A DNA stretch of 64,000 nucleotides from the human T2T-CHM13v2.0 reference genome, Homo sapiens. The number at the start of each line of letters is the position of its first letter. Position 1 is the stretch's first letter. Location of the stretch: assembly GCF_009914755.1 (NCBI RefSeq), contig NC_060932.1; one strand, given 5' to 3'. Both the position numbers and the translations under genes were made by a program. The notes beneath the pieces were generated by a model. That model saw only the letters and a list, made by a program, of their open reading frames with translations. It was not told where the DNA came from and made no database searches. Positions 3,946 to 48,604 of this stretch are shown here, one piece after another.

Positions 3946-4954
3946 TTAAATCCTCCAAGCTGTAAGTATAACTCAGCAAAGAAAAAGGCATGATAATTGT
4001 TAGGCTATTTTTAAAATATACTGATCCATTTTGTTGCCATTTTTTTCTGAAACCAAAGAAATAATGAGCTTATCAACATGAATATTAGAAGTGGAAGAGA
4101 ATATTATTTAATAAGTTTATCTCGCAGGCATACCAAAAATGTTACATTAAGAAACTTGAAGAAAATATGAAAAGCATGAAAGAACCAAAGACAAATCACC
4201 TTTATTAATAAAAGATGAAGACTACAAGTTAGTTGATTTGCTAATGTGTATGAGTAGAAATTGCTGAACGAAATAGTACAAAGTACAGCAGCTAGGAAAA
4301 CAGATAAGAAATAATATCTAATCAAAATCCAATAAATCAGAAAAAAACATGAAGTAAACAGTTTCCAAATTATTTCTCAATAGAAAAGTGCAACATCAGG
4401 CTTTGGAAAGGTACTTTTAGCACGAAAGAGTTATTATTTCATATTTGGCTCAATTTTGTGCTTTCTTGAAATAATATATGTATAATGACTTAATATTTTC
4501 ACTAAGATTTTGCTCAAATTTTTATAATTTACTTTAGATAAATTTGTTTAGAACTCTTAGCTCAAAATACCATGAATATATTAATAATGCCATATTACTC
4601 AGCCTTTGCATTGAAATGTTAATGACATACAGATATGTTAAAATTTTGGTAATATTCAGGCCGTAAACCAATTGGTACCCAATTTTTGGCCGAGATGTGT
4701 ACGTTTGGGTTCCTACCTGTTTATTTCATCCACCAAGAATGTACTGTGTGTTTCTGATATGCCATACATGGGCACAATATAGAGTGTACTGTCGGATGAA
4801 ACATGATTATAAACAAAATCAAACCAAACAAGGTAAGTAGATACAGACTGATGAGGGTTACAGGAGCATTTTAAATAGAGGTTGGAAACCTGAAAGAAGT
4901 AAAGGATGGAGTGTCGCAGGTGTTCTGGTGCCTGGAGAGATGGGAAGAAGGAGG

Positions 4955-5210
4955 TTATCAGGTCATGGGCGTAGAGCCCTCAGGATGGGGTTTGTGCCCT
5001 TTTAAAAGAGGCCCCAGAGAGAGCCATCACCCTTTCCCACACAGCCAGAAAGCGCTGGCCATGAACCAGGACACTGTCTTCAGCAGACACCATGTCTGCC
5101 ACGCTTTGATCTAAGACTTCGCCCTCTGGAACTGTAAGGAGTAAATCTCAGCTCTTTATGAGCCACCAGCCTATAGTATTCTGTTAGCAGCCTGGATGGA
5201 TTATGATAAG
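4955..5210 (+). mobile_element. MaLR LTR fragment (MLT1A-like)
   Basis: gagccctcaggatgggg...cccttttaaaagaggccccagagag...ggaactgtaagg...agcctatagtattctgttagcagcc resembles the MLT1 LTR 3' half. Confidence 0.6.
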
Positions 5211-6102
5211 ATGTGATTTTGGTTTTTCTCTGTTTTTAAAACATTATGAGAGACAGAGATGACTTCATTAAGCCATATGCACATACGTGGGTTTTTGTGT
5301 TGTATTTTATATATACATATATAATTTTAATTTTGAATACATGAATTCTAATATATACACAAATATTGATATCAGTGATTTTCAAATTTATCCTGCCCAA
5401 TTCATCCTTTTTATATGAAACGTTTTATCAGCCCTTCTCTTTGTCCTCTATTGAAATTCATACTGACCTAGGCATATCATAAAAAAGTAAAATCAAATCA
5501 AAACATTTATAAATATAATATGCATAAAAAATTTAAAAAAAGGACAGTTTACAGCAGAATGGGCATGCATTTCCCTCTAATTGACCACTGTGTTTTACAC
5601 TGAAAACAATGAAATTGTTGGCTGCTTGCAGCTTTGTGAGGAACTCTTAAGAACGCTGCCTAGAGAAACACAAATGGGAATTGCTTCAATAACAAATAAA
5701 ATGCCATCATGTCATTGAAACTGGACGTATTTTTTTCAAGAAAAAGGAACTTGTGCTAAAGTTCATAATCAAAGATTACACAGCGTTTTCTCAACCTATT
5801 TTTGTGTGCAAAAACCATGTAAAAATGATTTATCTCATATGAAAAAGAAGTGCAGTCATATTCTGGACTCAGGTAGTTACAAGAAGGTTTTCTCATCTTC
5901 AGAAAGATTCGGAAGTTTTATAGAAATGGGATGTGGTCCTGCACTGGAAACCTACTCATCCAGCGGTGTGGAGCATCCCAGCATAGCTGTTCCTGACACT
6001 GTAAAGAACAAAACTGCCCATGAAGTTCCCAAGCTTAGAGGGCAGGTGAGTCATCATTAAAAACCACCAATTTAGGTAAAAATAATGTATTCTTTTGAAT
6101 TA

Positions 6103-6450
6103 TGTGTCTCTGTGTGCGAATGTGTCTGTGTGTGTGGTGTGTGTGTGTAGGTGTGGGGCTTGGGTGTGTCATCTGTGTATGTTTATGTGTGTCTGTATGT
6201 GTAGTGTGTGCATGTGTATATATGTAGTGTGTGTGTGAAAGGGTTGTGTGTGGGAGGTGTGAATGTGTGTAGGGTGTGCATGTGTGTATATGTAGGGTCT
6301 CTGTGAGAGGTGTGTGTGTGTGTATGGTGTGTGTGTGTGTCTGTGAGAGGGGTGTGTGTGTATATAGTGTGTACATGTGTGTATATGTAGGGTCTCTTTG
6401 TGTCTGTGAGAGGTGTGAGTGTGTGTATTTATATGTGGGGACTGTGCATG
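6103..6450. repeat. Imperfect (TG)n-rich low-complexity tract
   Basis: About 350 bp of interrupted TG repeats with recurring gtctgtgagagg; explains the His/Thr and Cys/Val ORFs here. Confidence 0.9.
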
Positions 6451-9400
6451 CTTGCATTGGTAAGACACTGCACTAGATTCATTGATGTTGAGGGGACCAA
6501 GTTTACTTCTGCTCATGTTCTTTGCCCAACCTGGAAATCCTTGTGGAAAGCCCATCCCTTCCTTAATTCTATTAAACTTCAGTCTGTCTTGTGATGCTTT
6601 TCAATTCTCACGCATTCCGGAAAGTCAGTCCTGATTCTTCTGATCCAAACATTCCTTTCTTCTCTGCATTCTCCGGAAACTTAGACTTTACACCTACTGT
6701 TTAGCCATCAACATATGTCTTCTTTTTCCAAGTAGATTGTTGGCTTTCTGAGGGCAAGGACTGACTGCTTCTGTCATCCGCCAGGCTGTCACCTGTAATG
6801 GCAGGTGGAGGTGGAGGCTTCCTGTTTGTCATCATTGAGTGCTTTCCTTGCACATGCAGCTCATCTCAGATTTGGCTTTATGTTGAATATTATCTCACAG
6901 TATGTGTGCATTGTCCATTTTCACAGCCAGCAGATTTGAAAAGAGGAAATAACCAGCACTGATTACAAAGTATGAAAGTCATGGATACCTTTCTGTTTTT
7001 TCAGATCCATAACAATGTAGCTCAGCAGTGCAACAGATTCGAGAAGCAATTAGATTCAACTGCTTCAGTATGATTTTTGTGCATCATTAAGAAGTTACAT
7101 AAATTGTCTTTATTCCTTACATCTGGGCTTCTTACACATACAGACACCTACTTACAGAAGAAAATAAAGGCTTTCCATCACATTTTCTAACTGTAATCAA
7201 AATAAGTGGTTAGATGCCTGCTGATATAAAGGTACTCTTTTTTTTCTAAGTTAACATGGGAAATTGATCATTTCCATTTATGCATTACATTTTTATTAAA
7301 AATTTATTATGATATCATAGTTTGATTATTGAAGGATGAAGTCCTTGCTACTCACTAAAGGTGGTCAACTATCACAGCATTTTCTGAAATAATAAATTGG
7401 ATATTGGAGTGAAAAGATTAGTCACATCTGTCACTTACTGAGACAAATTCTCTTGACAGCTCAAAAAACTCACCCTCTTTTGCTTAACAAAGGAAACCCA
7501 CAGTTGCAGCACTCCTGCATTTTGAAATTAACACAAATAAGTGCAGCAATCTAAATACCACCTGCGATGTTCTCCCACTGTATGTCCACACCCTTTGCTG
7601 CTTGTGAGTCTGTGTCCCCCTGGCAGACCCATAAGTGCATGGAGACCTTCTCAATGTGTAGAAAGTGCTTTCCTATAATATCCTTGCTATTTATTATATT
7701 TCTTACATTTACTTTTTCTCCATAAACCAATTAATGTCCTTTGTTAGTGGGACATCACCTCAACACAAGCTCAACCCCTGCAGGTATTAAAATTTCCCCC
7801 GTGCCACATTGAACTCAGCACAAAAGTCCTGAAACAAGCAGTAAATATAGTTGTGATAACATTCACTCTAGGGTTTTGCATAAATAGATTTTGAAAGTCT
7901 TGGGCTACACAGAATGTTCTGTAATTCTAAACTTCCTATCTGAATGCATTTTGATTTAATGCAGGCAAGTGTACCAGCCTCAGATGCAAAGACCCAGTGA
8001 CTAAAGACATTAATGCTCATCTGAAGCAAAGACAAGAGTAGAGGAGCAGATTTTGAAAAAGGCAAAAATGGAAGGGGAAAGGTAATGCAGATGAGGAGAA
8101 AAAAGGAATCAAAAAGAGAATAAATAGCTGTGCATATGCTTATCTGTGTGTGTACTTGTGCACATACACAAGACCACAAAAGCCATGTTATAGTGATAGC
8201 CTCTTATTAGAAAAACAGGGATACATTTTCATTCAATTCTAATATCTACTGTAAAATAAAACGTGAAACATTGCATAATTCAGCAAGAAAATTAGAATTC
8301 AGTCCAGTTTCTATAAATTAAGGGGTAGAGTTTAGTTTTCCTTTCAGAAGCCAGACCACACCAGCACAAAGAAGACAGACAACTCGCTCAGTGCTTCTGG
8401 CATGACTCTGGCATTGGAAATCCGGATGAACGATTTCTTGTCACTGACATAATTGCATTATTCAAGCTTTATGGTAAAGTCAGGCTTAGGTTAATAACAT
8501 TAATCTCCCCTTTATTTCCCTAGATCTTATATATAATTCCTAGGGTGCATAGACGTGTGAGGATGATAAACCAAAAGGGTTTCTAAAAGCACATGAACCT
8601 CTGTGTGTATCGTGTGAAATCAGTGAAGAAAATCAGTGAAGAGTTGGTCCCACCATATTAAGCCATATTTGAATTGTTCTGGACTATTCCATGGCCTGGC
8701 TCACTCATCAGATACTGGTTTAATTTTAAAAAGAAAGATAATCTTATGACGGTGCATTCATACCCAGAATAGAGCCTGGGTGGGCCAGGCTGTCATACGG
8801 GAAAGAAAGAAATAGAAAGCCAGCCATGCCTCTGATGCTGTTTCCAGAAAGAGGTATCGGCATTGGTGAGAGTTGATGGTTCTTTAGAAACTCAGAGGGA
8901 GCCCTATTCAAGGTCTCCAGGATCAGCCACTGGGGGATGGGGGGTCCTGCATTTGAGTTATCAGGAGCCCTGCAGGTGATTCTCACGTGCCCTGAAATCC
9001 CAGAATCAGAGAACCACTGCTCTAAGATCCTGCCCCAGGCTCAGGGCCCATGGGAAGATGCTATGATTCTTGCCACAGCTTGCTCACCCAGGCGACCGAA
9101 TCACTTAACCAGCTCTGACTTACCACCCCCAGCCCGTCTGTAGGACTTGGCCTGGAACAGCACATATCCACCTTGATGGAGGGATGCAGAGCCTGTAGTC
9201 AGGCATACGGAGGTGCTGAAGGCTGTCTGGCTTGCTGTGTGGGCCAGGCATAGTGGATAGTCACACTATCAGACCATCAGAGAGTGAGGCTGTCCTTTGC
9301 ACAGACATGAATATCGTCACGTGTCCCTGCAGGAAGAGAGTTTTATGCACGCTACCTTAGTATTGACTTCATATACATAGGGGAAAATTCTATTTAAAAT

Positions 9401-10117
9401 GCTTCTGGTCAATGATTTGAGCTCAGCTTGCCTGGAGTGTAATTTACCAGAAAGAAAAAAATGGACTTCATTAAAATTAGAGACCTCTGCTCTGCAAAAG
9501 ACACTGTTCATACAATAAGAAGACAAGCCAGAGACTAGCAGCAAGTGTTTTTAAAAGGTGTGTCTGATAAAACACTGATACCCAAAATATACAAAGAATC
9601 CTTAAAACTCAGCAATAAGAAAATAACCCAATTAAAACATGGACAAACAATCTGTACATATCACCAAAAAAAAAAAAAATATGCTGATCGGAACTAAGTA
9701 AATGAAAGAGACTTTAGAAAAGCTCATGTTAAAATAATGACATACTGAACACACCTACTAGAATGGCTAAAATCCAAAGCACTGACAATACCAAATGCTG
9801 GTGAGGATGTGGAGCAAAAGGAACTCTCATGCATGGCTGGTGGGAAGGCAAAATAGCACAGTGGCTTTGGAACACAGTTTGAAGATTTCTTATAAAACTA
9901 AACATATTATATGATCCAGCAATCATAGTCCTAGATATCTACTTAAGTAAGCTAAAAACTTATGTCCACACAACAACCTTCACATGGATGTGTATAGTAG
10001 CTTTCTTCATAATTGGCAAGAGTTGGAAGCAATGAAGATTTCTTTAATAGGTGAATGAATAAACAAGCTGTGGTACATTCGTGCAATGGAATGTTATTCA
10101 GTGATATAAAGAAGGGA

Positions 10118-10410
10118 GGCGAGGGGCCGTGGTTCACATTTGTAATCTTAACACTTTAGAAAACCAAGGCTGGAGGATTGTTTGAAGCCAGTAGTTCAAG
10201 TCCGGCCTGGGCAACATAGTGAGATCCTGTTTCAAAACCAAAAAACTTAGCCAGGCGTAGTAATGCACACCTGTAGTACTAGCTACTCAGGAGGCTGAGG
10301 CAGGAGGATTGTTGGAGTAGAGTTCAAGGTTACAGTGAGCTATGACCATGCCACTGCATTTCAGCCTGGGTGCCAGAGCAAGACTTTGTCTCTAAAACAG
10401 GAAAAAGGAG
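10118..10410 (+). mobile_element. AluJ
   Basis: AluJ-type segments ggaggattgtttgaagccagtagttcaag, gggcaacatagtgagatcc and gtgagctatgacc; heavily decayed. Confidence 0.85.
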
Positions 10411-10471
10411 AAAGAAAGACAAACAAATGAGCTATCATGGCCACAAAAAGGCATGTAGGAACCTTGAATGT

Positions 10472-10845
10472 TGATATGGTTTGGCTGTGGCCTCACCCAA
10501 ATCTCATCTTGAATTGTAGTTCTCATAATCCCCATATGTCATGCGAGGGGCCCAGTGGGAGGTAACTGAATCATGGGGGCAGCTACCCGCATGCTGCTGT
10601 TCTCGTGATAGTGGGTGAGTTCTCACGTGATCTGATGGTTTTATAAGGGACTTTTCCCCATTGCTCAGAACTTCTCATTTCTGTCACCATGTGAAGAAGG
10701 ACCTGTTTGCTTCCCCTTTCACCATGATTGTAAGTTTCCTGAGGCCTCCCCAGCCCACAGAACTGAGTCCATTAAACTGCTTTCCTTTATAAATTACCCA
10801 GTCTCATGTATGTCTTTATTAGCAGCATGAGAATGAACTAATACA
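10472..10845 (+). mobile_element. THE1 (THE1C/D-like) MaLR solo LTR
   Basis: tgatatggtttggctgtg...aactaataca with TG...CA ends; 5-bp TSD aatgt/aatgc. Confidence 0.92.
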
Positions 10846-11906
10846 AATGCACACTACTAAGTGAAAGGAGCCCATCTGAAAAGGTTACATACTGTGTGAT
10901 TCCAACTCTACGACATTTGTTGGAAAGGAAAACCATGAAGACAGTAAAAAGATTGGGGGCTACTGGAGTTTGCGGGAAGAGAGGGATGAACAGGCAGAGC
11001 ACAGAGGATTTTTCGGGCCGTGAAACTACCCTGTATGATACCATAGTTGTGGGTACATGTCATTACACATTTGTTAAAACTTCTAGAGCCCTACAACACC
11101 AACAGTGAACCCTAAAGCAAACTGAGGACTTTAATTACTAAAATGTATCATGCTAGTTCATCAGTTTTAACAAATGCACCTCACTAGTGCAGGATTTTGA
11201 CAGAGTGGAGACCCAGGGGTGGTGTCAGAGGATACAAGGGACTCTGTACTTTCTGTTTAATTTTTCTGTAAACCTAAAACTGCTCAGAAAAGAAAGTCTA
11301 TTAATTTTTAAAAAGATATGAAACTTATGTCTTCAAAAGATTTTTTTCTCAAATAAGATACTCTTGGTATATGTTACAAACTTAAAACCATTACATAAAT
11401 ATTTTAAACTTCTGGGACCAAATTTCTTTTCAAGTAGATACAAAGATCTATTTTCTTTGAGGCACACTTATTCCTTCTTTGTGAAACCACTATGGTTTAA
11501 AATCTTAAGCACATAAACTTTAACTCGTCTACAAGTCTACATTTATGAACTGCGTAGGAAATGACCCTCAGGAAGAATAAGTGGAGTTGAAGGGTTAATG
11601 AGACATCATGCAACACACGCATCTATAATAAAACAGGTGAAAAAGACCCATTCTCCTGTATGATTGTAGACATTGTAAATATGTTACAGAAGATTGATTT
11701 ATGATAGAGAATTTGAAAAACATGGTGTTATCATCAGACTTATAAATCAAATATTAAATGAGAGAAATCTGCATTGATATTAAATCTACAATGGAAGGCA
11801 ATTTCACACAAAATATCTCATTGTCTCTATTTCATTGCCCATTATGCTAATGTCCACATGTGTGGGAGGGTGTTTGAGACTCTGGACCTTGGAGGGGAAT
11901 ACTGAA

Positions 11907-11912
<6 letters not shown>

Positions 11913-11938
<26 letters not shown>
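11913..11938. repeat. (GT)13 microsatellite
   Basis: Perfect dinucleotide run. Confidence 0.95.
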
Positions 11939-14876
11939 TTCAATTCATATCTAAGTCTTACAGGATTCCAAAAATGTAAATTCAAGGTGGAAGTCAGGTT
12001 TAAATTCTGCTTATGAAGAAATTCTTGGTTTGGGAATCAGACTTTTCATTTTCTTACTAACTCCTTAGAAATATATTATGCACAAACTGGGGATAAAAAG
12101 TCTCCTTTTGCTTTAAAAATGATCATCACATGCATTTTTGATACCACAGCAAGTTGGATCCCTGGGCCATACCTCCTCATGGAATCAACCTCAAATCCAG
12201 ATAAAATTCAATAATTTCTTAAACGCCACCACTTGCTGGCAATTAAGTAAGGAATTCTTACCTTTAGGGTAAGAGAAAGCCACAAGTAGACCACTGAAGT
12301 TGTCTTTCCCCGCAAGGTAAAATGTGAGTGTTGGTTCTCACAGGCTCCAGCGTCTGAAACCAGAACCCACTAAGTAAGGGAAATCCAATTGGAGATTTTC
12401 TCCCTGACTGCAAAGGTGAGCCTCAAAAAGCTGTACCCCCAGTCTGGGGTAAATCAGAAATGAATCCATTCGCCGTTAGTAGCAGTGTCACCAGGAAATG
12501 CAGCATCTACAACTCCAGTGTTGAGGGGGCATGGTCAGGAGAATATGAAGCATGGGAAAGTCCGAAGCCAGTTTGCAACCTGACTTCAAGTCAAAAACTT
12601 ACAGTCAAGCTCCAGGCACCGGAGAGAAGCAAACCCTTACCCCTGCAAACATGCCTGGAGCCCTCAGCTTCTTCAGAGGCCTGAATCAATTCCCACAAAC
12701 AGGCTTCCAAGGTACTGAGCAATTCTTAGTCAAATACTGTTGAAATAATGGTAAAAGGAGGAAAACTAATAGGATTGAAATAGTGACATCATTTTATTCA
12801 GGAGTTCCAGAATCACTGAAAAATCTGAGAGGTGAGTTTAGGCTGATGATCCCTTTGCAAAATGTCTGTCAATGACCTGGAATGCATTTTCCCAGCACAT
12901 TTTCTTCATAAAGCCTTCAGGCATCCCTCCCATTCGCACGGATTGAGTCTTCTCTGAGCTCCTCTTTTCACTTATTTATAGATGTACCGATTCACTTATC
13001 ACCTCACTGGATATTTATTGAATGCCTGTGTCACCGGGCACCTCTATTCCAAGCACCATCCGGGCCTCCTTCACTTCATCATCACGCCATGTGTCCTGAC
13101 GTCCTTGGGTTTTACAGCCCTGCTAGCCTGAGTGCTCAGCGAGGACCTTTTCTCTAGATAGCTCCAGTCCCCACACAATGCTTGGTTCATTCAACTCATC
13201 GAATGAACACTGTGCTTATTTCCAGCCCTTTCTCAACAAAATTCCAAGTAAGTTGTCTACTCGTACTTTCATGTGTTAACTTATGTTTCTCCATTCAGTG
13301 AGCACTGTAGACTCACGTAGGCAGAGAAAAGGATTCTCATCTCAAAAAGATTTAAGATTTGAAAATTTAAGAGTACATAATTGGCAAAGTGAAATAAAAT
13401 GAAATAAAGACACAAACGATAATGGAACGGAATGGTAACTAACCATGGCTCTTACTCTGCAGTTCTTGATTGAGGAAAACACTTACCTAGAAAAACGAGT
13501 TACCATGAGGAGGCCGCAGTCATGAATGAATTCCATTCCATGCTTGAGTGCACGGCACTGCATTGCTTATTTTCTAGGCAAATTGTGTCTCCTCTCACAG
13601 GACTGCTGTGAGGTGCACCTGCCCCAGGGAAGGGGGTGCCTACAGCTTTGCTGACACAGATATGTGAAGTAACTAGGATCCCTCTTTCCAATTCGCCAAT
13701 GAGGTGCTTCATCTGAAATCTTGGAGGCATATATCTCAATCTGTCATTGGACGAATATTTCTCTCTGTTACAGCCCAACTGTAGGGGCAAATCAGCTGTC
13801 CACCTTGCACTCCTGCTGCTGCCAATGAAAAGTTCGTGATGTTCTATTAATATCTGTATCAGGGTGTCCTCTTTTGATCCTCCCATGTAATGCCTCATGT
13901 TAGTCTAGTTATCCTGAGCCTATGACTGACATGTGTCAATGGGCTGGAAAACACACTCTGCTGCAGACCAGATTCTTGTAGGTGGGCTCCTGAGGTATCC
14001 TTAAGGCATCAGAAAATTTGAGAAATGTACAAAACCATCTGCAGAAGTTGAAGCTGATCACCACCAATGAGAAAGTCCAGCAAATTGGAATCCTCATAAA
14101 TGTACTCACATATTTTACACAGTAAAATCCTTAAAATCCTTGAATAATTCAATTGCAGAACATAACCCCCTAATTAAATCACATACTACAGTATATTTAA
14201 CTGGATCTATTATGTCATTACACAAATTGTATAATATTCAAAATTACGAGTATTGTACTCTGTATAGAACTTAAAAGAATTTTTGTATAAAACTGTGACT
14301 ATATGCATTTTGTCACTCTAAGGGCCACTATCATTTATAATCTCCACAATGGCCAAGCGTTCTTTGACAGGGAAGCCTGTACTCAGGACGACAGTTATTT
14401 AGTTATTCTGTGATGTAAAAATTACTGTTGGAAAAACCATCTTAACCTGCTACTCTAGTGCTCAAACCACAGTGGAGCCTTTGTATAGCACCTTCGTGCA
14501 GCTGCCAGCCACGGCTGCGGGGTTAAAGAAGAGGACTATACACCCCTGCCACCAGGTTCAAGGTTTTCCTTGCCAAGATCTACCGCAGGGCTGCGAGGAG
14601 GCCACGTGACTTGTCAGGTGCATTCCAGGGTTCAGGGGGCCTTGGTGGCCTTGACTTCTTCTAAATGGAGATACAGGAAAAAGCCTCCAGATGTTATCCT
14701 GGCAGGTTCTGGACCCGCTTTTGAACAGTGAGCCGGGAGTAGTTAAGTAACAAAACCTCTGCCAGCTTTGCCGGCCAATTTCCTCTTAAGGCCCACCTGG
14801 GACAGCAGAGGCTAGATGGGCTCCTCCTGCTGCGAAGTAGAAGTGCAGGAGTTTACATGTGTCTTGCAGTTGTCTA

Positions 14877-15254
<378 letters not shown>

Positions 15255-16154
15255 TAGCCCATATGTGCCTTGCTTTAGGACTTGGCTTTCTGAGCACAGT
15301 GCTTCTGTGTCTTACACGGTGCATGTCTGCATTTGCTGTGAATCTTGCAGGCAGCCAGTTCTGTCACTCTTTCCTTGCCTCTGCTGCCAGCTCCCGACCC
15401 CATGGGCCTCCCTGCCCTGCAGGCTCCCCCTGGCTGGCGTTTCTGCCTTTGCTCTGAGCTGCTCCTTCTGCAGCCACCTTCAGGACAGCACCTGTCATGA
15501 AGGATACGTCTTCATATGGCCCTTTCTAGTTCTCCCACCTCGAGAGTAAGTCCGGAATGCCACAGAGGACACCCAAGACCACACATGTAGAAATAATTAG
15601 TATGTTTAGAAACCAGACTATAAACTCCTCTTAAAAGTTATGTACAAAGAAATTATGAGACATGATTATGAATAGTGTTATTATTTCTATGGTTAACTAC
15701 AACAAAAAGAAACAATAACTTCTGCTAGGATAAACCAGGCGATATTAAATTCCAAATCATAATCAGCTTGGGAAATAATTTTCTTAACTTTCTGGATCAC
15801 AGACATTCCTCTGAATTACAAATTTGGACTGGAACCTCAATGATGGAAAGAAATATTGAGAGCTATCCTTAGAGAGTCAAGCTACTGAGGAAAATCAAAG
15901 CTGAGAATATAATGCTTGAAAATGTATTCGACGGGGCTATCCAAATTACTTTTAACTCATGGATGAGTTAATATTCTTTAGCAAAAATAATACTTATTTT
16001 ACATTTTAGAAATACGTGTGCTCTATTGAGGGACTGTAGCAATACAGCAAGGGCAAGAACCAGAAGCTATGGCTGCAGTGTGTGGGGTACGAGCCATGAG
16101 GTGGAAGACGTGCTGCCAGGGAAGATAGACAAGTACCTGACAACAAGATGTGCA

Positions 16155-16530
16155 GACGGTGACACTGTGTGGGACCTGGGAGTGAGGCGCACAGAGGGGG
16201 ACACTGTGTGTGACATGGGAATGGGGTGTGAACAGAGGGGGACACTGGGTGGGACCTGGGAGTGAGGCACACAGAGGGGGACACTGTGTGTGACATGGGA
16301 ATGGGGTGTGAACAGACGGGGACACTGGGTGGGACCTGGGAGTGAGGTGCCCAGAGGGGGAAACTGTGTGGGACCCTGGAGTGAGGTGCACAGAGGGAGA
16401 CTCCGTGTGGGACATGGGAATGGGTGTGCACAGAGGGGGACACTGTGTGGGGCCTGGGAGTGAGGTGCACAGAGAGGGACTCTGTGTGGGGCCTGGGATT
16501 GGGGTGTGCACAGAAGGTGACATTGTGCGT
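16155..16530. repeat. G-rich minisatellite, about 9 units of 39-41 bp
   Basis: gacact-type unit starts at 16161, 16200, 16241, 16280, 16321, 16360, 16399, 16439, 16478, 16519; two unit types (ggacctgggagtgagg and gacatgggaatgggg). Confidence 0.92.
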
Positions 16531-16539
16531 GTGACTATG

Positions 16540-16622
16540 CGCACATTTACATATATAACAAAGCTGCCCATCCTGCACACGTACCACAGAACTTAAAACA
16601 GAAGTTCATGGAAAAAAAAACA
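16540..16622 (+). mobile_element. Short L1 3'-terminal remnant (old L1PA type)
   Basis: ataacaaagctgcccatcctgcacacgtaccacagaacttaaaa followed by an A-run matches the L1 terminus. Confidence 0.7.
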
Positions 16623-17884
16623 AAGACAATTCTAAATCTCAATTGGAAGGCTTCCTGTGAGTACAGAGAATTTCCCTCCCGCCTTCGCACCTCTGGTGTG
16701 CTCTGGGACGGCATTGGACCGTTATGGGGTTTCCAGTATTTGCATCACACTGCTTGAGCTCTTTACATCACATGTATATGGCCTTTCCCAAACCAGATGG
16801 CCTGAACTAATTCTGCAGTCACTCTGGTCGTATCATCTATTTTTGTTCTGTTTATCTCTCGATGAAAGTTGCTCGCCATGAAAATATTTTCCGTCATGTG
16901 AGAAAACCATAATCATTCCATGTTAAATAAGGCCTTTTAAATATCTGTAGCTTGGGTGAAACCACTCACCATATGACAGAATTTTAGAAAAATTACTTTT
17001 TTTAAAATGGCATTGAGTGTAAGTATTTTTGAATCGTATCTGTCATTATCTATGATAAATTGAATTACTTTTAAGAAAATCGAAAAGTATTGTCCTAATA
17101 TGGCCACTCTTTAGGGTAAATTCCTGACATTGGTGACTGGTAACCAATACATTGGGGATTGGTTTAAGTTTGAACTAGTTTTATGCCAAAAGTACAGCTT
17201 TTGTTGCTACAACCTGAAAATCTTTTAAAATGAGACCAGAGCATGGACTGATATATTTGGCAGGATGTGTCCCCTTGCCATCAAAATTGAACACCAGATG
17301 ATGACAAAAGTGGTGAGCTATTACCGTGTGGCCAGAGGCCTGGCAGCAACTCCATGCTCAAGTGAGTTATTGCAGAATAGAGGCCACAGAGTGTCACAAA
17401 AGAGCTAATAATAAACCTGGGACTTATTATAAAGGAGGAAGAAAAAAAATTACTGACTGAAGGGGACAAAGGGAGACCCATTTTTTTTTTCACTTTTGAG
17501 AAACCTATTATTTAACACACATGCTGAACATAAAGCCCATTAAACAAATATGAAACCCCATCTGGGTTAGCAAAATGCAAAATGCAGTGCAGACAGAACC
17601 ACGAGCCGCAGCAGCCATGTCTGAGGGATGTGAAGTCTTGTGTTTCAGAACCAATAGGGAATTTTGAGTGCTCTTTAAGGCCCCAATCCAAATCAGATCC
17701 CTTCAAAGACCTCACTTCATAGCTCATTTTCACAAGAATTTTTTAAAACCATTTTTGAAGGTAGATTCCTAAAGTGACATTTAATCAAATTCATTCAGTA
17801 AGATGACATTTCAGTATTTTCCGCTAAGTTAGTAGTCGTGAATGATTGTCACATCTTCCCTCAAAATTGTTTGTTTCGTTGGTT

Positions 17885-18011
17885 TGGTGGGAACTGGCAT
17901 ACATCTGTGTGACACTGGTCGGAACTGGCATACATCTGTGTGACACTGGTGGGAATTGGCATACATCTGTGTGACATTGGTGGCAATTGGCATACATCTG
18001 TGTGACATTGG
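17885..18011. repeat. 31-bp tandem repeat x4
   Basis: Unit tggtgggaactggcatacatctgtgtgacac at 17885, 17916, 17947, 17978. Confidence 0.95.
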
Positions 18012-18191: not shown

Positions 18192-18581
<390 letters not shown>

Positions 18582-20743: not shown

Positions 20744-21692
<949 letters not shown>

Positions 21693-21780: not shown

Positions 21781-22105
<325 letters not shown>

Positions 22106-24994: not shown

Positions 24995-25370
24995 TGATAT
25001 GGTTTGGCTGTGTTCTCACCCAAATCTCATCTTAAATGGAGCTCCCATAATCCCCATGTGTCATGGGAGGGGCCTGGTGGGAAGTAATTTAACCATGGGG
25101 GCGGTTACCCTCATGCAGTTCTCATAATAGTGAGTGAGTTCTCACAAGATGTGATGGCATTATAAGGGGCTTTTCCCCCTTTTAGCTGGGCACTTCTCCT
25201 TCCTGCTGCCATGTAAAGAAGAACATGTTTGCTTCCCCTTCCACCATAATTGTAAGTTTGCTGAGGCCTCCCCGGTCATGTGGAACTGTGAGTCAATTAA
25301 ACTTCTTTCCTTTATAAATTACCCAGTCCTGGGTACGTCTTTATTAGCAGCATGAGAATGGACTAATACA
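24995..25370 (+). mobile_element. THE1 (THE1C/D-like) MaLR solo LTR
   Basis: tgatatggtttggctgtg...gactaataca; flanks aactg and aacca are consistent with an AACCG TSD decayed at its CpG. Confidence 0.92.
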
Positions 25371-26602
25371 AACCATAAGAAAGAAAGAAATTATTATGCC
25401 CTCACATATAAATAATAACTAAAAATAATTCCAATTAAAAAAAATCTTGGCAGTACAACTTTTTTTTTACATCCTTGCATCTGCATTTCTCGAAGGAGAC
25501 CATTGCCGGCCATTTTACAGTCTACTTCTTCATGCATTGACACATGTAAGCAAAGTCTGTTTTTGATGTTTTGTTTGAAACTTGCCGAAACACAAATGCA
25601 ATGGTCTCCAGTTTTCACTTGCCCCCCGCTTTCAGAGTGATTTTTTTTGGTGATTAAGGAACAGGGTGTAAACAGAATATCCATCAGTACTTTCTCTCCT
25701 GGCATTATCAATTAAGATCACAGTAGAGATTTCTGTAGCAGATATTATGTTTATATTAAGTTTATGAAAATACATCCATCACCAAATCTCCTGGCACACA
25801 TGTTAAGTAAAACGCAAAAGACAAAGCCTACCAACACGATGATAATCATGCTATTTTATAGACTGCAGATGGATTTGTTTGAAACAGAAAGCAGAATCCC
25901 AGTGGAGACACAGCCACATCATTCCCTGAAGAAACCTGTTTGGTGCTTACTGTGGGCCAGAAAAATAAGTGAGAGGAAAAGGAAGGTGTTTCGTCAAGCC
26001 TGACTCTTCTAAGCTACAGGGTAAAGAAATAGAGGGAAAGGGGGAAAATAGCTCTGGCGTCCTGTTATATGTGGTATGTTTCTATTCATAAATGCTTCTC
26101 ACTTTGCAGTTACTATGGGTCACACAGCATCACATCTGATAGTTTTGCATTTGTTAGAAGATGAAAAAGACAATTTAAATTTATATTCTACTATTCACAT
26201 GGCCTTTTGAAATAATGTTATAAAATTCTCTCCATCTTCCCTTTTCTTCACCCTTTCCCTTGTTTTTGCATCATTTTCCATGGTGTTCATCATTGTCCTC
26301 GCTGCATTATTGCTTTTGTTGTCTGATGTAACTCTCTGTCTACTTCATCTTTCTTGCTATTTGATTCCTGTTTTTCATACTTTTCATATATTATTTTACT
26401 CCAGAAGTTTCAAACTAGCTGCCTTCAGGCCACATCTGGTTTGTGTAAATATTTCATTTTATTTACAGATGTTTATAAAACAATATCAGTTCACAGACAA
26501 GATTTAAAAGTTAGATGATATCCCTGAAAATGTGCTATTATAACTTGTCTTGAAAAGTTAGAAATCTGGCAAAATTGGACCTACCATCCAGATCGTCAAC
26601 AA

Positions 26603-26742
26603 CTGGATGCTCAGTGTCCCTGGGGTGGTGTTTGCAGTTGTCCATCCCCTGGATGCTCAGTGTCCCTGGGGTGATGTTTGCAGTTACCCATCCCCTGGAT
26701 GCTCAGTGTCCCCGGGGTGGTGTCTGCAGTTGCCCATCCCCT
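26603..26742. repeat. 46-bp tandem repeat x3
   Basis: Unit ctggatgctcagtgtccctggggtggtgtttgcagttgtccatccc at 26603, 26649, 26695. Confidence 0.95.
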
Positions 26743-27754
26743 CGACCTGGGTCACTTATTTACTGCACCAAGCTGGCCCCTACAGGCAATGGGACTTAAG
26801 GTCCTTTGTCTAAATTTGTGTATATTTAGCACTCTATGCCAATTGTATTTTTGTTGTTGTTGTTGTATTTATTATTAGTCCATGACCTTTCGATATAAAA
26901 AGTTGTATACAGAATATTGTGTACAATATTCTTCTCTATATATGCATTGGCTCTATGAGCAAAATAAGATACAGGTCTTCCTTTTTAGAAGGCTACCTTA
27001 CAAATGAAGAGACCAGCACATCACCAAGTACACGGGCCAGAGTCTAATCTGGGTGGTAAATTCTTTCTTTCCATGGTTCATTAGTAAAGAATGAGTTATT
27101 GTGCATAGCCCTGCCTAGAGACGCTGAGTAAAGTGTTTCCCTTGTCCCCTGAAGGAATTAATGTGCCTTTGTTTATGAAAACCTAACCTTAAAAAGGCAA
27201 AGCTCTCAGCCACTCTATAGGAAAGAGGGATCAAGGCATTAATGAAGGTGAGGGGCGGGGGCTCAAATGCAGAGACAAACATACTTGCTAAGACGGTCAT
27301 AGGGTGGGAGCTGGAGGGGAGGGTGCCTGACGGCTGGACTTCAGCTCCCCGGTGGCTCTGAGGAGGCAGCAAGGGACATCCGGGGGCCTGTGTGGTTGCT
27401 TGGAGATGTGGGGATGTCCCAGGGGCTCTGTTACCAATGATCACCTAATGACACGGGTGGCTTCCTTTTAGAAACCCTTAGAACCCAGAGAAAGGAGGGA
27501 ATGCTTGAAATACTGAATATCCATCCACATGCATGGAGGACTCTTCACTTGGTTTAGATAATTTGCCTTAGAAAATTAAAGGAATACATTTCACGAGCCT
27601 TGCACCTCAATGGCTTGAAACAAACTCATACCTATTTCATTAGATTGCAAAACTATCACGGATGCTGTTATAGACATTGTTCAAAATATGCAGTATTCTC
27701 AAAGGAAAAACGAACCCACAGGAGGTGAAATTTCATTTGCATCGTTAGAAATGA

Positions 27755-31004
<3,250 letters not shown>

Positions 31005-31772
31005 AGAAATGATTGTCAAGTTTGAGATAGGAAAGTAGGTCGCTAGAGAGGCTATTTCAGTTAAAGGTTTCGGCATAAGCAAAGATCCCTAATTGTGAAA
31101 ATGACTATCTGGGGGGAAAGTGGAATGGAAAGTGAACGACCGACCACGGATCTCACTGGGAGACGTGGGGAATGAAGCCGGGAGGACTTGGGAGCAGAAT
31201 ACAAATGGCTGAGCCTATAAAGGTAGAAACGATGGGCTTCATTCATTCAGCCAATGCTGAGCCACCATCTTTCAAGGATACACAGCTCGTTGAGTGACTG
31301 AGCCCTTCTCCATCTGTGGTCTTGTCAACTATATGCAGCGTTGGTCATCCTTCATCTTTCATCAACATCCTTTATAACACATTAATGAAAGTGCCAGGGG
31401 CAGTCCTGACTCCAGTCATGGGTGATCCCAGGACTTGTACGATATCATGGCCGCTGAGAGAATCTCCCCAGTCTCTCGTTCCTGCTCACGCATCTTCTCC
31501 ATTGCAATAGCCAATTGCTCACTAACAACTCTAGGCTTTCACCAACATCACCAAGTTCGGCAATAGGAGATAAATTCTCTCTTGAAACCCTGATCTCAGG
31601 CCTTACTGAGTGGTCCAGGCCATATATCCATCCCTGAACCAGTCAGCACTGAATGAAGTGTGAGAATGAAACCTGAGTCTTGTCTTTAAGTGCAAGTAAC
31701 CTGTCAACCCCTCCAAACACATGAAGCCAGAGGGTGTCAGAGCGGTAGGAGGAATGGGAGCAAAGAAGAAAA

Positions 31773-32408
31773 ACACATGTGCATGCACACACACTCACAC
31801 TCTCACACACACATGCTCTCTCACTCACACACACACACTCACACACACATGGTCTCACACACATTCACATGCTGTCACACACACTCACATGCTCTCTCAC
31901 ACACATTTGCACTCACACACTCACATGCTCACACAGTCACACACACTCACATACTCTCCCATGCTCACACTCATATGCTCTCACACACATGCTCTCTCAT
32001 ACACTCACACACTCACACTCACATGCTCACACACACATGCTCTCACACACATGCTCTCTCACACTCACATGCTCTCTCACACTCACATGCTGTCTCACAC
32101 ACACACTCACACACATGCTCTCACACACACTCACACTCACACACATGCTCTCTCACACTCACACACACATACTCTCCCATGCTCTCTCACACACACATGC
32201 TCTCTCCTACACACACACTCACACTCACATGCTGTCTCTCACACACACACATGCTCTCTCACACACACATGCTGTCTCACACACACTCACATGCTCTCTC
32301 ACACACACTCATATGCTCTCTCTCACACACACATGCTCTCTCAACTCATTCACACATTCACACACACATGCTCTCTCACACACACTCACACACACACAGT
32401 CACACACA
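31773..32408. repeat. Complex (CA)/(CT)-rich repeat with recurring cacatgctct
   Basis: About 630 bp of low complexity; stop-free in three frames because of its composition. Confidence 0.93.
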
Positions 32409-35400
32409 AACATATTTCCACCAAAGAGGTATTTGTCAGTATGAGAATGGATTGTAAATTTGAGAAAAAATTAAAAAGCTAAGGGCTATAACTCAGGAAC
32501 GGCTCCCAACAGAGAGGGCAGAAAGAGTCTAAACAAGGGCTGAAAGACTGGGTACAAAACTAATGTAAAGGACTGTTTCAGCCTTAAGTATAACATTGCA
32601 TCCACCCTCCATCGTGGCCATGGGCCTGCAGCTGGATTAGAAACCATGATAGCTCTTGGCAGCGCGGATGACGTAAAAGGGACTACATCACCATGTCTGA
32701 TGCGTTCATTTATAAAACCATCTGAGAACTCTGGGGCATGTTCTTAATAAAGTTCAGAACTTTGTGACTTTTCTCTTTATCCCTGTAGGTCAGTTAATTC
32801 CAACAGATGCTAACAGGTAAGGATTGGATGTGGAGTTCTTAAGGATACATTTTTTATTTTATTACATTTAATCTAAAATTTAATTGAGATTACCAAGACA
32901 ATTGGGACTTTAAACTTAAGATCCTAGAAAATGGATGAAACTTGCTCACATTTTAATAGAAAACCAAATATTTCAGTCATTCATTTTAGGCTTTGACATT
33001 GTTTTTGATCTTAATGGACTCATGGAAAGTTTGTACAAGGTTTAAACCCAGGAGCTCTAAGTATACATTAAGTTGCATGTGGTGTTCCCTGTGTAACTGA
33101 ACTTGTCAAATGAGATCCACCCACTGCACACAAACAGGGAACAGTAGCACAATGGAAAATGATGTGCTTTTGCAAAAAATAAGGAGGTAGCACCTCATCT
33201 TGTTCCCACCTCCACCACTGGACAGTCAAAGAAGCTCAGTTTCATAGAGCAATCCCCAAAATGAATAACCACCTTAACTAGGAGAATTACGACAGCGGAA
33301 GTATTGTGTATTGATGTCGTCTTTCACTGTCATCATCCATCCCAATTATAAACCTTAGCCCACTGAATATTTCACACTGAAATTACTTCTGTAATTTATT
33401 GTCTCCTGTGGAAGGGCCAATAAAGGAGCTGAAAAATATTCTTCTTGTATTTGCCTTACACTGGGCAAGTCCACTAGCAAGGAACTTCTCTACCACATGT
33501 ACTGATTAAGACATTAGCATTTTTTCATCTTGATTAGAGAGAAGAAAGTTGCTTTAAAGCTTTTGCAGAAATATTGTTGCAGACCATCTAAGGCACAAAG
33601 CTTAAGGACCACATTCAGCTTAGAAATGGTGAGAAATGGTGACAAACTGGGGAGATAGGCAGCGTCCCATCTAACAGGTAAGGAGCAGCTGTGAGAAGCC
33701 CCAGTGAATCTTGTCCCCAGTAAGCTGAAAACCAGCACCTGATGGAACAGGAGGAGAGATCCAGCCCATTACGAGAGGGGTGGCAGCAGCTAGATGAGTC
33801 TTTGGGTCTCAGACAGAAAACATATTCATGAGTTGGATGTCCTTTTCCTTTTAAGATATACATTTATTCCATTTCTTGAGAAATTGCTAGGCAATTCACC
33901 AACTAATTCTTCACTGATTTATTCATTTTACTTAAGGTTAAATGATGTCAATTTTCCCCCGAGGTACTTAACTGCGGAAAATTCACCAAAGCTTTTAAGA
34001 TAGAGGTTGAAAAGGAACCGATGTGCTCTATGAAGTGCTAGAAAAGACTTCTTAAACTTCTAGATGTAGTTACCCAGTTTTGGAAAATAGGTTACAACTT
34101 GTGTATACAAACTTTACTAAGGATCATTTTAGGTTTCTTCCACTGGAAAACCAGAACAGAAAGCCATGCTTAATTATGCTTTCCATTTGATATTTATTGA
34201 ATGTTGTTTTTTTAAAATTTTAAAAGGAGCACATAAATGGGTCACCCAAGTGAGTGCCAAAGTGAGATTCTCTCCTTAACGATGTCTCTGTAAAGCTGAC
34301 CCGAAGAGATTGAGTGGGAAGGCTAGAGGCAGGAAGGAGATAAAGTGGTTCACTATCAAGAAAGAGGAAAGTGGACGTTATAAGGGGGCTCTGAAGTGGC
34401 AGAGACTTAAGGAACAATGCAGAAAGGACTTGGAGGTTAACCTGTCGTTAAGTACAGAATCCCTCTCAATCCATCACCTGGACAGCTGTAAATTTCCCAC
34501 AACAAGAGAGACGGGCATTTGGAAAACTTGCTGGAAGTGAAAACGCGACAGATGAAATTATTTTCTTGACCAAACAGAAAGTGTGAAGACTTTATTAAGA
34601 ACAAAATCTCAGATAAACTCCCAACAATTTGCATTGTCTTGTATTGGTGGTGGTGGAGGATTAATGAAGCCATCCACTTGTCTGTAGTAATAAAAGACTA
34701 TAACATTTCACCATTTTAACAGAGAAGCCAAAGAATGACCCCACCATACTCCTCATTTACAACAGGAAAAACTAGGATGCATGTAGAATTCATTCCTTGC
34801 TTCCGTCCCAAAACCCAATCAGCCAGAGGAGGCTGTTGCATTTCCAAGCACACTGCTGTTTCTTTGTTCAAGACTTAATAATTTATTATCTGGGTTAGGG
34901 CATCAGTTTCCCAGATGGCCTTCCTTCCTGGAGTCAGCTGGAAGTCCTGATCATACAAGAATCACCTTTGCCTGGCTTTCCTCATTCATCCATCACCACT
35001 CATCACTCATAGGTGACCATCAGCTATGTTGACCCACACGCAGGCACCTGGCTTTCCCCCCTCATCTACCACCACTCCTCACCCATAGGTAATTATCTGC
35101 TAAATTGAACATACAATTTCATCTTGAAGAGTAAAGAATTATTACAGAAATGCAATCTATCTCCATTCAGTCCCTGAAGCCAACATGTTTTTTTCCATGT
35201 TTGGCCTCTGGCTCATGTTACCTTTTTCTGCTCAGGATGTTCTATCTTTATCCCATTTTTTAGCTCACCATGTATTCCTTGTCATCTAAGATTCTGCTCA
35301 GACATTATCTCCTCAAGAAGCTTTCATAACCCACCTTCTCCCACATGCAAATCTCTATCCCCACTGCCTGGAATTGAACACCCTCCATGTCACATTACAA

Positions 35401-36074
35401 TATAATTTCAAGTATCAGTGACTAGCCTGGGCTTGAAGATTCTTGAGGACAGGATACAGCCTTATTCACCTTTATTTCCCTGCCAAATGGCTTGAGATAC
35501 AACTGTTGCTGAATTAATAAGAGAATGAGGTTACCTAAGGAAAGACAGAGCAAGTCAAACTAAGGAAGCTGAATTAACTTGAGACACATCTAAGTCCACT
35601 GAGCATTTTAAATTAAGGAGTAACATGGTAAACCTTGTTAGCAAGATGGGAGGTTCCCCATAAATTCTTTTGGAATTTAAGTCATTTAGAAATATCACTG
35701 CAAGAGTAAATTAGGGGAGAAAGGAAAAATTAGGAGGCTTTGCATTAATCCAAGCAGAAAATTTTGCATGTCTGAAGGCAGACAGCGGCAGCACAGACAC
35801 CCAAAAATTCTTGAAAACTGATTATATGCTAGAGATGAAGAAGAAAGTGTGGTGATGGCCAGGACTTTGACTTCAGGGACTGAATGGATATGGGTTCCAT
35901 TTCTGTAACAATTCTTTACTCTGCAAGACAAAACTATTTGTTCTTCTCGTTTGAGAACCTAGTTGGGTCCACTAAGAAGGGACATTTTAAATGAGAGATA
36001 TCCGAGCTTCATCTACTGCCTCTCTTCCATTGTTGTCTCAGATACCTTAAATAGAACCACAATTATTTTCACAG

Positions 36075-36780
36075 ATTCATTCATTCACCCATTCAACTGT
36101 TCATTTATTTTCAACAAATATTTATTAAATGCCTCTTTATGTGTGGAGTGGTGTTCGATTCAAGGCAGTGGGGATAAATAGTTTCTTCATGGAATTCCTA
36201 CCATGGTTTGGAAGATCAAAATGAGTACGATAAGTAAGTAAAATACACGATATGCCAGGTGGTGGTTTGTACAATGGAAGATAATTAAACCTGGGTGGAA
36301 TAAGGGTAATAAGTTGGGGGCACTTGTGGCCGTTGATTAGAGCGGCTTCCACCCCTATAGAGAGGTCATTGGAAGGCTCTCTGGTAACGTAGAGTTTCGC
36401 TAGATGCATGAAGGAATCTACGTGGTGATATGAAGGTACAGAGGCATCCACAGTGAAAAGCCCTTAAGCAGGAGGGGACGGGGACATGGGCTGCTCAAGG
36501 AGGAGCAGGCATGGACTAGACATTCAGGCCTGGGAAGTAGAGGGTGTACAGAACAGGATAGAGAGGTCAGAGGGGGATGGACATCTAATACAGAGAGCCA
36601 CATAGACCACGGTGAGGACATGGGCTTTTACACTGAGGTTTTAACCATGATCATGATAGGACAATACTCATTGCAAAATTGAGAGTAGATTAATGGGAAA
36701 GGAAGTGCACATGCAGGAAGAGCTGCTGGGAGGCTGCTCTAGCCATCCAGACAAAAGACGGTGGTGGCTTGGCCCAGGGA
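36075..36780 (-). mobile_element. LINE-2 3' end fragment
   Basis: attcattcattc...caacaaatatttattaaatgcct is the antisense L2 tail; further L2-like sequence to gggaggctgctctagccatccagacaaaagacggtggtggcttgg. Confidence 0.7.
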
Positions 36781-37189
36781 CATGTCAGGGGAGTGGATGC
36801 AGTAGGGTCCGATTTTTCGAGGTGGCTTACCCTCTTCACTGTGGCCACAAGGGTTTCCCACTCCAACAGCGTCCTGGCATCTCAGGGGACTCAGCGCTAC
36901 CAAAAAAGTATTCTCAGATGTGGGCAGCTGCCACATTGGTGCTTCTGTGGCACTGACTCTGCCATCTTGCTGAGGTCACCAGCCAGGGAAAGGTTCTTAG
37001 GGGAACTCTAGGTCTGGAGGCAGCTTTCCCTGCATCATCCCGGTCAAGATGTGATGACCTCCAGGAATTCGCAGTCCTGAGTCAATCCACAGTCCTCTGG
37101 TGAAGGGGAAGCTGGCAGGTCTGAGGGGAGTGCTGGGGTCATCATGCAAGTCCATCCTGTGAACCCTCCTCTGAAAGGTCACCACAGCC

Positions 37190-38330
37190 CTTTCTTAGGG
37201 TGAACCTGCCCTGGGGAATGGAAAATACCCAGACATTCCAGATCTGTTGGCGCTGACACTGACTTAATGGGAATGAATAGCCTCCAGAATATGCAGGGGT
37301 CACTGGCAAGAGTGGTCGAGCGTCTCTTCAGGGATCAGAGAGTTTGGGGCCTAAGCGCTCGCCCTAGGAACTCAGCAAACCATGGACACATCTTGCAGTG
37401 TCTTTCAAGTTCAGCATGCATCCATGGAGCAAACACAACCAGCAGTTGGCAGATACCATGCTGGCCTCTTAAAATCTGGCTATTGAAGCAAAGACTTGGA
37501 ACCAATCCAAATGCCCATCAATGATAGACTGGATACAGAAAATGTGGCACATATACACCATGGAATTCTATGCAGCCATAAAAAAGAATGAGCTCATGCC
37601 CTTTGCAGGGACATGGATGAAGCCAGAAACCATCATTCTCAGCAAACTAACACAGGAACAGAAAACCAAACACCTCATGTTCTCACATACGGAAGAACAC
37701 GTGAGAGTTGAACAATGAGATCACCTGGACACAGGGAGGGGAACATCACACACTGGGGCCTGTCGGGAGGTGTGATCAAGGGGAAGTAAAGTATTAGGAC
37801 AAACACCTAATGCAAGAGGAACTTAAAACCTAGATGATGGGTTGGTAGGTGCAGCAAACCATCCTGGCACATGTATACCTATGTAACAAACCTGCACATT
37901 TATCCCAGAACTTAAAAAAAAAATGGCTATTGAGTTAAGAGGTCCAAGTGGAAACCCCCGAAGCTCCCTCTCCCAGTCAAAATTGTAAACTAAAACCAAC
38001 ATGACATGGCCAAGGGGACTGCAGAGATTACTGCCACCATCAAAGTCACCCTGTATGCAGAGACTAGCAATCCTATTACACGCTCATTTAACCCTTTTGA
38101 TTGGCTGGTAAAAAAGACAGAAGTATCTTTGTGGAATTCAGTGTATTACACAATTATTGACTTCAGTTGCTTCTGTATTTCCAGATATTTTCTTCTATAC
38201 TAAAGCAAATCAGTGCATCTACATGTGTTATATATCACAGAGCTACTGATGCAGCCAGTACATCCCTCTGCTCCAATAAGCAGAGAAAGAGAGCTTGAAT
38301 TTTTATTTTAATGTTTTCTTTCACTTAGCA
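37190..38330 (+). mobile_element. ERVL-class internal (pro/pol) remnant, split by an L1 fragment
   Basis: ORF 38006-38203 (GTAEITATIK...PITRSFNPFDWLVKKTE..W) resembles the ERVL RT N-terminus (GIAEISATIK...PTTSPFNSPIWPVQKTDGSW); 37205-37265 resembles the protease region. Confidence 0.65.
37487..37923 (+). mobile_element. 5'-truncated L1PA7/8-like 3' fragment
   Basis: ORF2 C-terminus ([15 protein letters not shown]), 3' UTR and A-tail; TSD tggctattga at 37477-37486 and 37924-37933. Confidence 0.92.
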
Positions 38331-39006
38331 AGGATGGCAGTAGCTGGCTGTTACCTCAATGGTATAGGTAATTTTTTAATATGAGCTTCACAGCTGCTTC
38401 AAAATCTGAGTTTAAATGACTCTAGACTGAATATAACCTAATTATATCATGGTCTCTAAATTATTCTTGTAATACTTCATATTTTTGTCATCACAGTTGA
38501 AAGCAACTTTTCAAATAAAGGTCAATGGCTATGAAAGTGACTAGAATTTATAGGGAAGCATGCAGTGTGAAGTGTTTCGGTGAGGCTGGTGGCCTAATGA
38601 CCTTAACATTTCTACTAAGATAGATACAATTACTGGCTTACTTTCACTAGTTTCTATCTAGTATATAATTGTCTGAAGAGTGTTTTTTCATTACTTTCAA
38701 AAGAGAAAAAAATGCTTCTCAGAGTAAGTTTCTATGTTTTTGATGAATAACTTTATCACACTCGAGATGGAAATATTATCTCTTCACAGCTTGTCTAATG
38801 GGCTGTAAAAATGCTAAACTAATAACTTATTTGGAGCACAGTATATAGGATTAATTTTTTTCTCTCCAAAACAAAGTGTATTGTCAAGGCATAATTTTTT
38901 TCACAAACTAATCAATTTTTGACCCTAAAAATGTCTACATTTAAAGTCCCAAAGCACCAATACTGCCAAGATTGTAGACCAACAAATGACAGTTTCCATA
39001 TATTTT

Positions 39007-47882: not shown

Positions 47883-47892
47883 ATTTTATTTT

Positions 47893-48295: not shown

Positions 48296-48604
<309 letters not shown>

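What the first reader, a model, noticed from the sequence alone, without database searches (positions are those of the whole stretch)
3946..39006. The 35-kb spacer is a candidate polymorphic or recurrent inversion, and TSD pairing reports its orientation
Established: multi-kb, highly identical inverted repeats mediate inversions by non-allelic homologous recombination, and conversion is the non-crossover outcome of the same process. Seen: one copy of L1-B's TSD lies inside the spacer (38990-39006) and the other outside (45745-45761), and they match. Inference: this sequence is in the ancestral orientation, or has flipped an even number of times. An inverted allele would pair the 45745 TSD with L1-A's 3' flank (aaattaaatcctcc...). 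I cannot tell from the sequence whether an inversion here is already catalogued.
Basis: inference. Interest (0 to 1): 0.78.

Follow-up and report, generated by a model that had tools for sequence, protein, structure and literature searches.

The report
Known recurrent chromosome 8 inversion HsInv1111

Summary
The inversion is real but known. It is HsInv1111 (T2T chr8:2,111,948-2,146,988 = window 3948-38988), inverted in 44 of 88 Strand-seq haplotypes. It is published as recurrent: 4 events, maximum r2 0.32, 0 fixed and 240 shared SNPs.

The arms are not two L1s but a 96/93-kb inverted segmental duplication, 99.2% identical, whose inner edge is an L1 tail. The TSD match is real (16/17), but a third copy lies 5' of L1-A (-2827..-2811). 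Inverting the spacer only moves the matched pair to the other arm, so it cannot show ancestry.

A TSD that can: at the outer edge of the left arm a 275-bp L1 and its TSD run into unique DNA, while the right arm holds only its last ~40 bp. The left arm is therefore the likely donor and T2T (O1) is likely inverted relative to the pre-duplication state. No gene is annotated in the spacer. Low interest.

The parts
3946..39006 (.). Invertible 35-kb spacer = HsInv1111; T2T-CHM13 carries orientation O1. No annotated gene.
   Evidence: Porubsky 2023 Table S1 row chr8:2111948-2146988; InvFEST row; ddPCR primers B1 at 4849 and C1 at 38484
1..3930 (+). In-window end of the left arm of the inverted segmental duplication, and of L1-A. 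The arm runs -92033..3930 (chr8:2,015,967-2,111,930, ~96.0 kb) and is likely the donor copy. L1-A runs -2810..3930 (6,741 bp, 98.0% to L1-B). Outside the window it holds the third TSD copy (-2827..-2811) and, across its outer edge, a 275-bp L1 (-92269..-91995) with a TSD (15/17) reaching into unique DNA.
39012..64000 (-). In-window part of the right arm. It runs 39012..132402 (chr8:2,147,012-2,240,402, ~93.4 kb) and is likely the duplicated copy; at its outer end only the last ~40 bp of the short L1 remain, followed by unrelated unique DNA.
   Evidence: primer D1 at 132423
39012..45744 (-). L1-B, full length (6,733 bp), with the same Alu at the same site as L1-A; longest ATG ORF 275 aa, so not an intact element
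38990..39006 (-). 3' TSD copy of the long L1: single copy, travels with the spacer; marks the original L1/spacer junction
45745..45761 (-).
3931..3960 (+). Inner junction without a TSD mate: L1 tail joined to the other end of the spacer; likely a duplication breakpoint
50681..64000 (.). Tract almost identical between the arms, running on to 68880 (18 kb; exact runs of 9,185 and 4,161 bp); likely recent inter-arm exchange
62730..62745 (+). Junction inside the arm L1 (58.9-64.9 kb), present in both arms; likely the published 15.8-kb deletion
   Evidence: position projected from hg38, not shown directly

Best explanation
The 35-kb spacer is the known polymorphic inversion HsInv1111, which sits between two ~95-kb inverted copies of one duplicated block and likely flips repeatedly by non-allelic homologous recombination between them. 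The block likely arose once: the left copy, bounded by two L1 tails in direct orientation, was likely duplicated in inverted orientation to the far side of the spacer, carrying the long L1, its Alu and its 5' TSD with it. A crossover anywhere in the arms would reverse the spacer without changing either junction sequence; exchange between the arms would keep their middle near 100% identical. Before the duplication, the spacer end with the TSD (38990-39006) likely abutted the left arm, so T2T (O1) is likely an odd number of flips from that state. Shown here: arm extent and identity, three TSD copies, junction anatomy, primer order. Taken from print: polymorphism and recurrence. Inferred: NAHR, donor arm, parity.
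For: Arms 96/93 kb, 99.2%. Same interval in Porubsky 2023 Table S1, 44 of 88 haplotypes inverted. InvFEST HsInv1111: 35,033 bp, repeats 110,841/108,492 bp in hg38; CHM13 = O1 with ~16-kb deletions at both breakpoints, which brings the arms to 95.3/92.2 kb, close to the measured sizes. All 4 ddPCR forward primers map once, in O1 order. 10 of 10 samples called by both methods agree (12 shared). Recurrence: r2 max 0.32, 0 fixed, 256 private, 240 shared SNPs, 4 events all O2>O1. Identity is patchy, 0% to ~4% per 2 kb. Donor arm: the short L1 is continuous over 275 bp against other genomic copies, its TSD pair matches 15/17 (19 of 200,000 random positions do as well), and the right copy is cut; 41.6 kb right of the right arm has no match of 88% or more to 38 kb left of the left arm beyond three 57-68 bp hits.
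Against: No O2 sequence and no ape or monkey sequence could be examined, so crossover inside the arms and the polarity are not seen directly. No split element or TSD links the 3946 end of the spacer to the DNA beyond the right arm, so only one side of the pre-duplication model is evidenced. 9 of the 10 concordant samples are heterozygous, so only one tests polarity between the two call sets. Arm edges differ by ~3-4%, so the duplication is probably old; Puig's ancestral O2 was assigned from human haplotype diversity and may agree with the junction evidence by coincidence.
Confidence: 0.85

Rival explanations
1. T2T is in the ancestral orientation: the right arm is the original locus, the left arm the copy, and a later deletion cut the right arm's outer end.
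For: The intact TSD pair of the long L1 is on the right in T2T. A post-duplication deletion at the right outer edge cannot be excluded from one genome.
Against: The TSD pair is symmetric under inversion. The deletion would have had to remove all remaining homology to the left flank. Puig 2020 assigns O2 as putative ancestral, with all 4 events O2>O1.
Confidence: 0.1
2. Two independently inserted L1s in opposite orientation mediate the inversion, homogenised by gene conversion.
For: Both inner edges fall at an L1 tail; the last ~190 bp differ at 8 positions.
Against: The L1s share the 5' TSD, the 5' flank, an Alu at the same site and ~90 kb of further sequence. L1-A has no TSD of its own. ~4% divergence is also seen in other patches of the L1.
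Confidence: 0.03
3. The two orientations are an assembly or mapping artefact of the long repeats.
For: Puig 2020 lists the locus as predicted from an alternative BAC tiling path.
Against: ddPCR linkage at both breakpoints, Strand-seq with Bionano support, and ultralong reads each report both orientations.
Confidence: 0.01

Closest known systems
HsInv1111 (InvFEST; Puig et al. 2020, PMC7263195; PMC13629690 Tables S1, S3, S4); chr8:2111948-2146988 in Porubsky et al. 2023 (PMC10150506 Table S1)
   Same: It is this locus: same interval and size, published primers map in order A-B-C-D around it, CHM13 is listed as O1.
   Different: Nothing in identity. The passages and tables I saw give no junction anatomy, donor arm or TSD argument.
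Recurrent inversion toggling by NAHR between long inverted segmental duplications (Porubsky et al. preprint 10.1101/2021.12.20.472354)
   Same: Long, highly identical flanking inverted repeats, allele frequency near 0.5, weak linkage to SNPs.
   Different: The spacer has no annotated gene; repeat/inversion ratio is high (3.1). Whether that preprint's Table 1 lists this locus could not be read (image).
Inversions between two separate inverted L1 insertions (class recalled, not looked up)
   Same: Inverted L1 copies face each other across the spacer.
   Different: Here the two L1s are one insertion duplicated inside a ~95-kb block; the L1 is about 7% of the homology.

Membership tests
HsInv1111 | Same interval and inverted length (~35.0 kb) | tested here: met
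   35,041 bp at window 3948-38988; 35,033 bp in hg38; 35,062 between arms
HsInv1111 | Published amplicons A and D outside, B and C inside the spacer ends | tested here: met
   A1 -92744, B1 4849, C1 38484, D1 132423, one exact hit each in 304 kb
Recurrent NAHR inversion between inverted segmental duplications | Long, highly identical inverted repeats on both sides | tested here: met
   96/93 kb, 99.2%
Recurrent NAHR inversion between inverted segmental duplications | Both orientations segregate | tested here: met
   From published tables: 44 of 88 haplotypes; ONT 13 O1/O1, 15 het, 7 O2/O2, CHM13 O1, 18 uncalled of 54
Recurrent NAHR inversion between inverted segmental duplications | Weak linkage, SNPs shared between orientations, several events | tested here: met
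   Read from Puig 2020 Tables S7-S8, not recomputed: r2 0.32, 0 fixed, 240 shared, 4 events
Recurrent NAHR inversion between inverted segmental duplications | Crossovers lie inside the repeats with no new junction sequence | not testable with these tools
   No O2 haplotype sequence available; the patchy arm identity is only indirect
Inversion between two independent L1 insertions | Each L1 has its own TSD and flanks | tested here: not met
   Shared 5' TSD and flank; no mate for L1-A's 3' flank
Inversion between two independent L1 insertions | Homology confined to the L1s | tested here: not met
   Homology continues ~87-89 kb beyond the L1 5' ends

The most novel reading that the evidence does not exclude
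The whole ~110-kb block was copied by a process guided by L1 3' tails: both of its breakpoints lie at L1 tails that are in direct orientation at the donor locus. The junctions then fix the pre-duplication orientation as O2 from a single genome, and the arms still trade sequence, having copied a 15.8-kb L1-L1 deletion from one arm to the other. Outer-junction TSDs would be a general way to polarise recurrent inversions without an outgroup.
Probability: 0.35. Interest if true: 0.4.

Novelty: already known. Interest (0 to 1): 0.2.

Why it matters
Little as a discovery: the inversion, its frequency, weak linkage and recurrence are published, and no gene is annotated in the spacer. HsInv1111 does not occur in the expression or trait tables of Puig 2020's supplement (all 10 mentions lie in other tables). 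What remains useful is a correction and a small addition. TSDs inside a duplicated arm cannot polarise an inversion, whereas an element crossing the outer edge can; here that gives a sequence-based argument that the reference orientation is derived.

Tried and rejected
1) A 12-bp exact mate of L1-A's 3' flank at 141693, right of the right arm, looked like the TSD of a target-site L1. Rejected: it does not extend beyond 12 bp, and no L1 lies between 132.4 and 141.7 kb. 2) An old repeat split between the spacer's 3946 end and the DNA beyond the right arm: none found (4000-4600 matches only itself; no match elsewhere in the first ~370 bp at the right junction); inconclusive without a repeat library. 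3) The arms first seemed to end at 120871/-78059; this was a minisatellite of unequal length. 4) The spacer L1 (27766-31009) as a second duplication of the arm L1: rejected, it has its own TSD (19/20) and is ~97% identical, as expected of a related element. 5) Ape orientation: not obtained. The Cell 2022 and Nature Genetics 2020 papers are not held; the ape-genome supplement was unreadable; PMC12485790 has no chr8 mention in the text and no readable supplement. These unseen tables may already state the ape orientation and a recurrence count. 6) L1-A's tail as coming from a different L1: not resolved; its divergence equals that of other patches.

Full report
Coordinates are window coordinates; values below 1 or above 64000 lie outside the window (chr8 = window + 2,108,000).

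1. The observation. Inverted homology flanks a 35-kb spacer: 1-3930 matches 42928-39013 at 98.3%. The 17-mers at 38990-39006 and 45745-45761 match at 16 of 17 bases and bracket a full-length minus-strand L1; 1 of 200,000 random positions in the region matched that well.

2. What the arms are. With 240 kb of flanking T2T sequence the homology extends from -92033..3930 to 39012..132402, about 96.0 and 93.4 kb. The five long blocks hold 716 substitutions in 92,244 aligned bases, 99.2%. L1-A (-2810..3930) and L1-B (39012..45744) are 98.0% identical and share an Alu at the same site and the same 5' flank. They are one insertion carried inside a segmental duplication. Identity is patchy: 0-0.2% divergence per 2 kb over 50-68 kb, with exact runs of 9,185 and 4,161 bp; 2.4-3.2% at 42-46 kb; 3.7% in the outermost bin. 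Bins at 96, 116, 120 and 128 kb are also high, but at least three of them hold minisatellites. I infer an old duplication homogenised by repeated exchange.

3. It is catalogued. Porubsky et al. 2023 (PMC10150506; I saw passages and one row of Table S1) list chr8:2111948-2146988, 35,041 bp, balanced inversion, Strand-seq and Bionano support. 44 of 88 haplotypes are inverted; 41 of 82 after dropping three trio children, whom I identified from recall. PMC13629690 (passages; rows of Tables S1, S3, S4) lists it as HsInv1111, hg38 2,343,351-2,378,385, repeats 110,841 and 108,492 bp, minor allele frequency 0.41, CHM13 = O1, with ~16-kb deletions at both CHM13 breakpoints. Puig et al. 2020 (PMC7263195; passages, rows of Tables S1, S2, S4, S6, S14, and Tables S7-S8 whole; Table 1 not held as text, one supplement file not searchable) typed it by ddPCR in 95 people: maximum r2 0.32, 0 fixed, 256 private and 240 shared SNPs, 4 events, all O2>O1, putative ancestral O2 assigned from haplotype diversity. 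Their four forward primers map once each in O1 order. Of 12 samples shared by the Strand-seq and long-read tables, 10 were called in both and all 10 agree, 9 being heterozygotes. One passage of PMC13504282 notes that most imputation methods did poorly on it in African samples.

4. A third copy of the TSD lies directly 5' of L1-A at -2827..-2811. In T2T the left L1 matches its inner flank at 11/17 and the right L1 at 16/17; with the spacer reversed the values swap. The two alleles are mirror images at both inner junctions and can be told apart only with anchors beyond the arms.

5. A test that does polarise. At the outer edge of the left arm a 5'-truncated L1 (-92269..-91995) runs across the boundary. 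It aligns continuously over ~275 bp with other genomic L1 copies (39 non-self rows, 84-87%). Its TSD has one copy in unique DNA (-92287..-92271) and one in the arm (-91995..-91979), 15/17 identical; 7 of 5,000 shuffles reached the alignment score and 19 of 200,000 random positions matched as well. The right arm holds only the last ~40 bp of this L1 and then unrelated DNA. So the left outer junction is original and the right one is likely a breakpoint. Since the 38990 end of the spacer is the original neighbour of the long L1, the pre-duplication order was likely left flank, block, long L1, spacer in O2, right flank. T2T (O1) is then an odd number of flips away. Against this: the second half of the model (3946 end next to the right flank) has no direct support, a later deletion at the right edge cannot be excluded, and no primate outgroup was seen.

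6. Mechanism. Shown: anatomy and junctions. In print: polymorphism and recurrence. Inferred: (a) inverted duplication of the left block to the far side of the spacer, probably by two template switches; (b) repeated NAHR between the arms, the accepted driver of such toggling (preprint 10.1101/2021.12.20.472354, passages); (c) continuing exchange. Both duplication ends fall at L1 tails. One search finds 12 tail hits in 304 kb, 8 distinct after pairing arm copies; by my arithmetic 100-bp zones round them cover about 0.4% of the non-redundant sequence, so the coincidence is unlikely by chance, although noticed after the fact. For (c): Puig's 15.8-kb deletion (hg38 2,401,778-2,417,633) projects to 62,381 from the inner edge and 63,162 from the outer edge. 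Between them, at 62,737, the arm L1 has a junction that skips 133 bp of L1 sequence; its halves differ from the spacer L1 by 4.4% and 2.9% (P = 0.04) and I found no convincing TSD for it. The junction is present in both arms inside the near-perfect tract. I read it as a two-L1 hybrid made by that deletion and copied between arms; this is not shown directly.

7. Novelty. The inversion is already known. I did not find the donor-arm or TSD argument in print: searches for HsInv1111 (two papers), the locus genes, TSD with ancestral orientation, L1 at duplication junctions and InvFEST with chimpanzee listed nothing on it; I saw those hits only as listings and abstract starts. Subscription papers and several supplements were not visible and may cover it. 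I assign no L1 subfamily names, as no repeat library was available; the L1, Alu and LTR-like labels are by eye, from recall, or by self-alignment.

Interest 0.2.

Noticed in passing
window 62730-62745 and its mirror in the left arm: Junction inside the arm L1 that likely marks the published 15.8-kb deletion; present in both arms within an 18-kb near-identical tract.
   Followed up: partly
window 27766-31009: Independent 5'-truncated L1 in the spacer with its own TSD (19/20), ~97% identical over 2.1 kb to the arm L1; direct to the right-arm copy and inverted to the left-arm copy, so a minor possible substrate for nested rearrangements.
   Followed up: partly
L015 (window -80000..-77800) against L009 (window 120600-120870): G-rich minisatellite of very unequal length between the arms (over 2 kb on the left, about 0.27 kb on the right).
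   Followed up: no
L021 (window 132402-132425): A short tandem duplication of about 10 bp lies right at the right outer junction, as often seen at template-switch or end-joining junctions (recalled).
   Followed up: no
window 42000-46000 and its mirror: The 5' half of the long L1 keeps 2.4-3.2% divergence between arms while its neighbours are under 1%: an island that seems to have escaped conversion.
   Followed up: no
window 16153-16527, 31786-32396, 56668-57006: Tandem repeats (39/80-bp, CA-rich and 16/97-bp units); the first two account for several spurious ORFs. The longest ATG ORF in the window is a 522-aa L1 fragment at 29211-30779.
   Followed up: no
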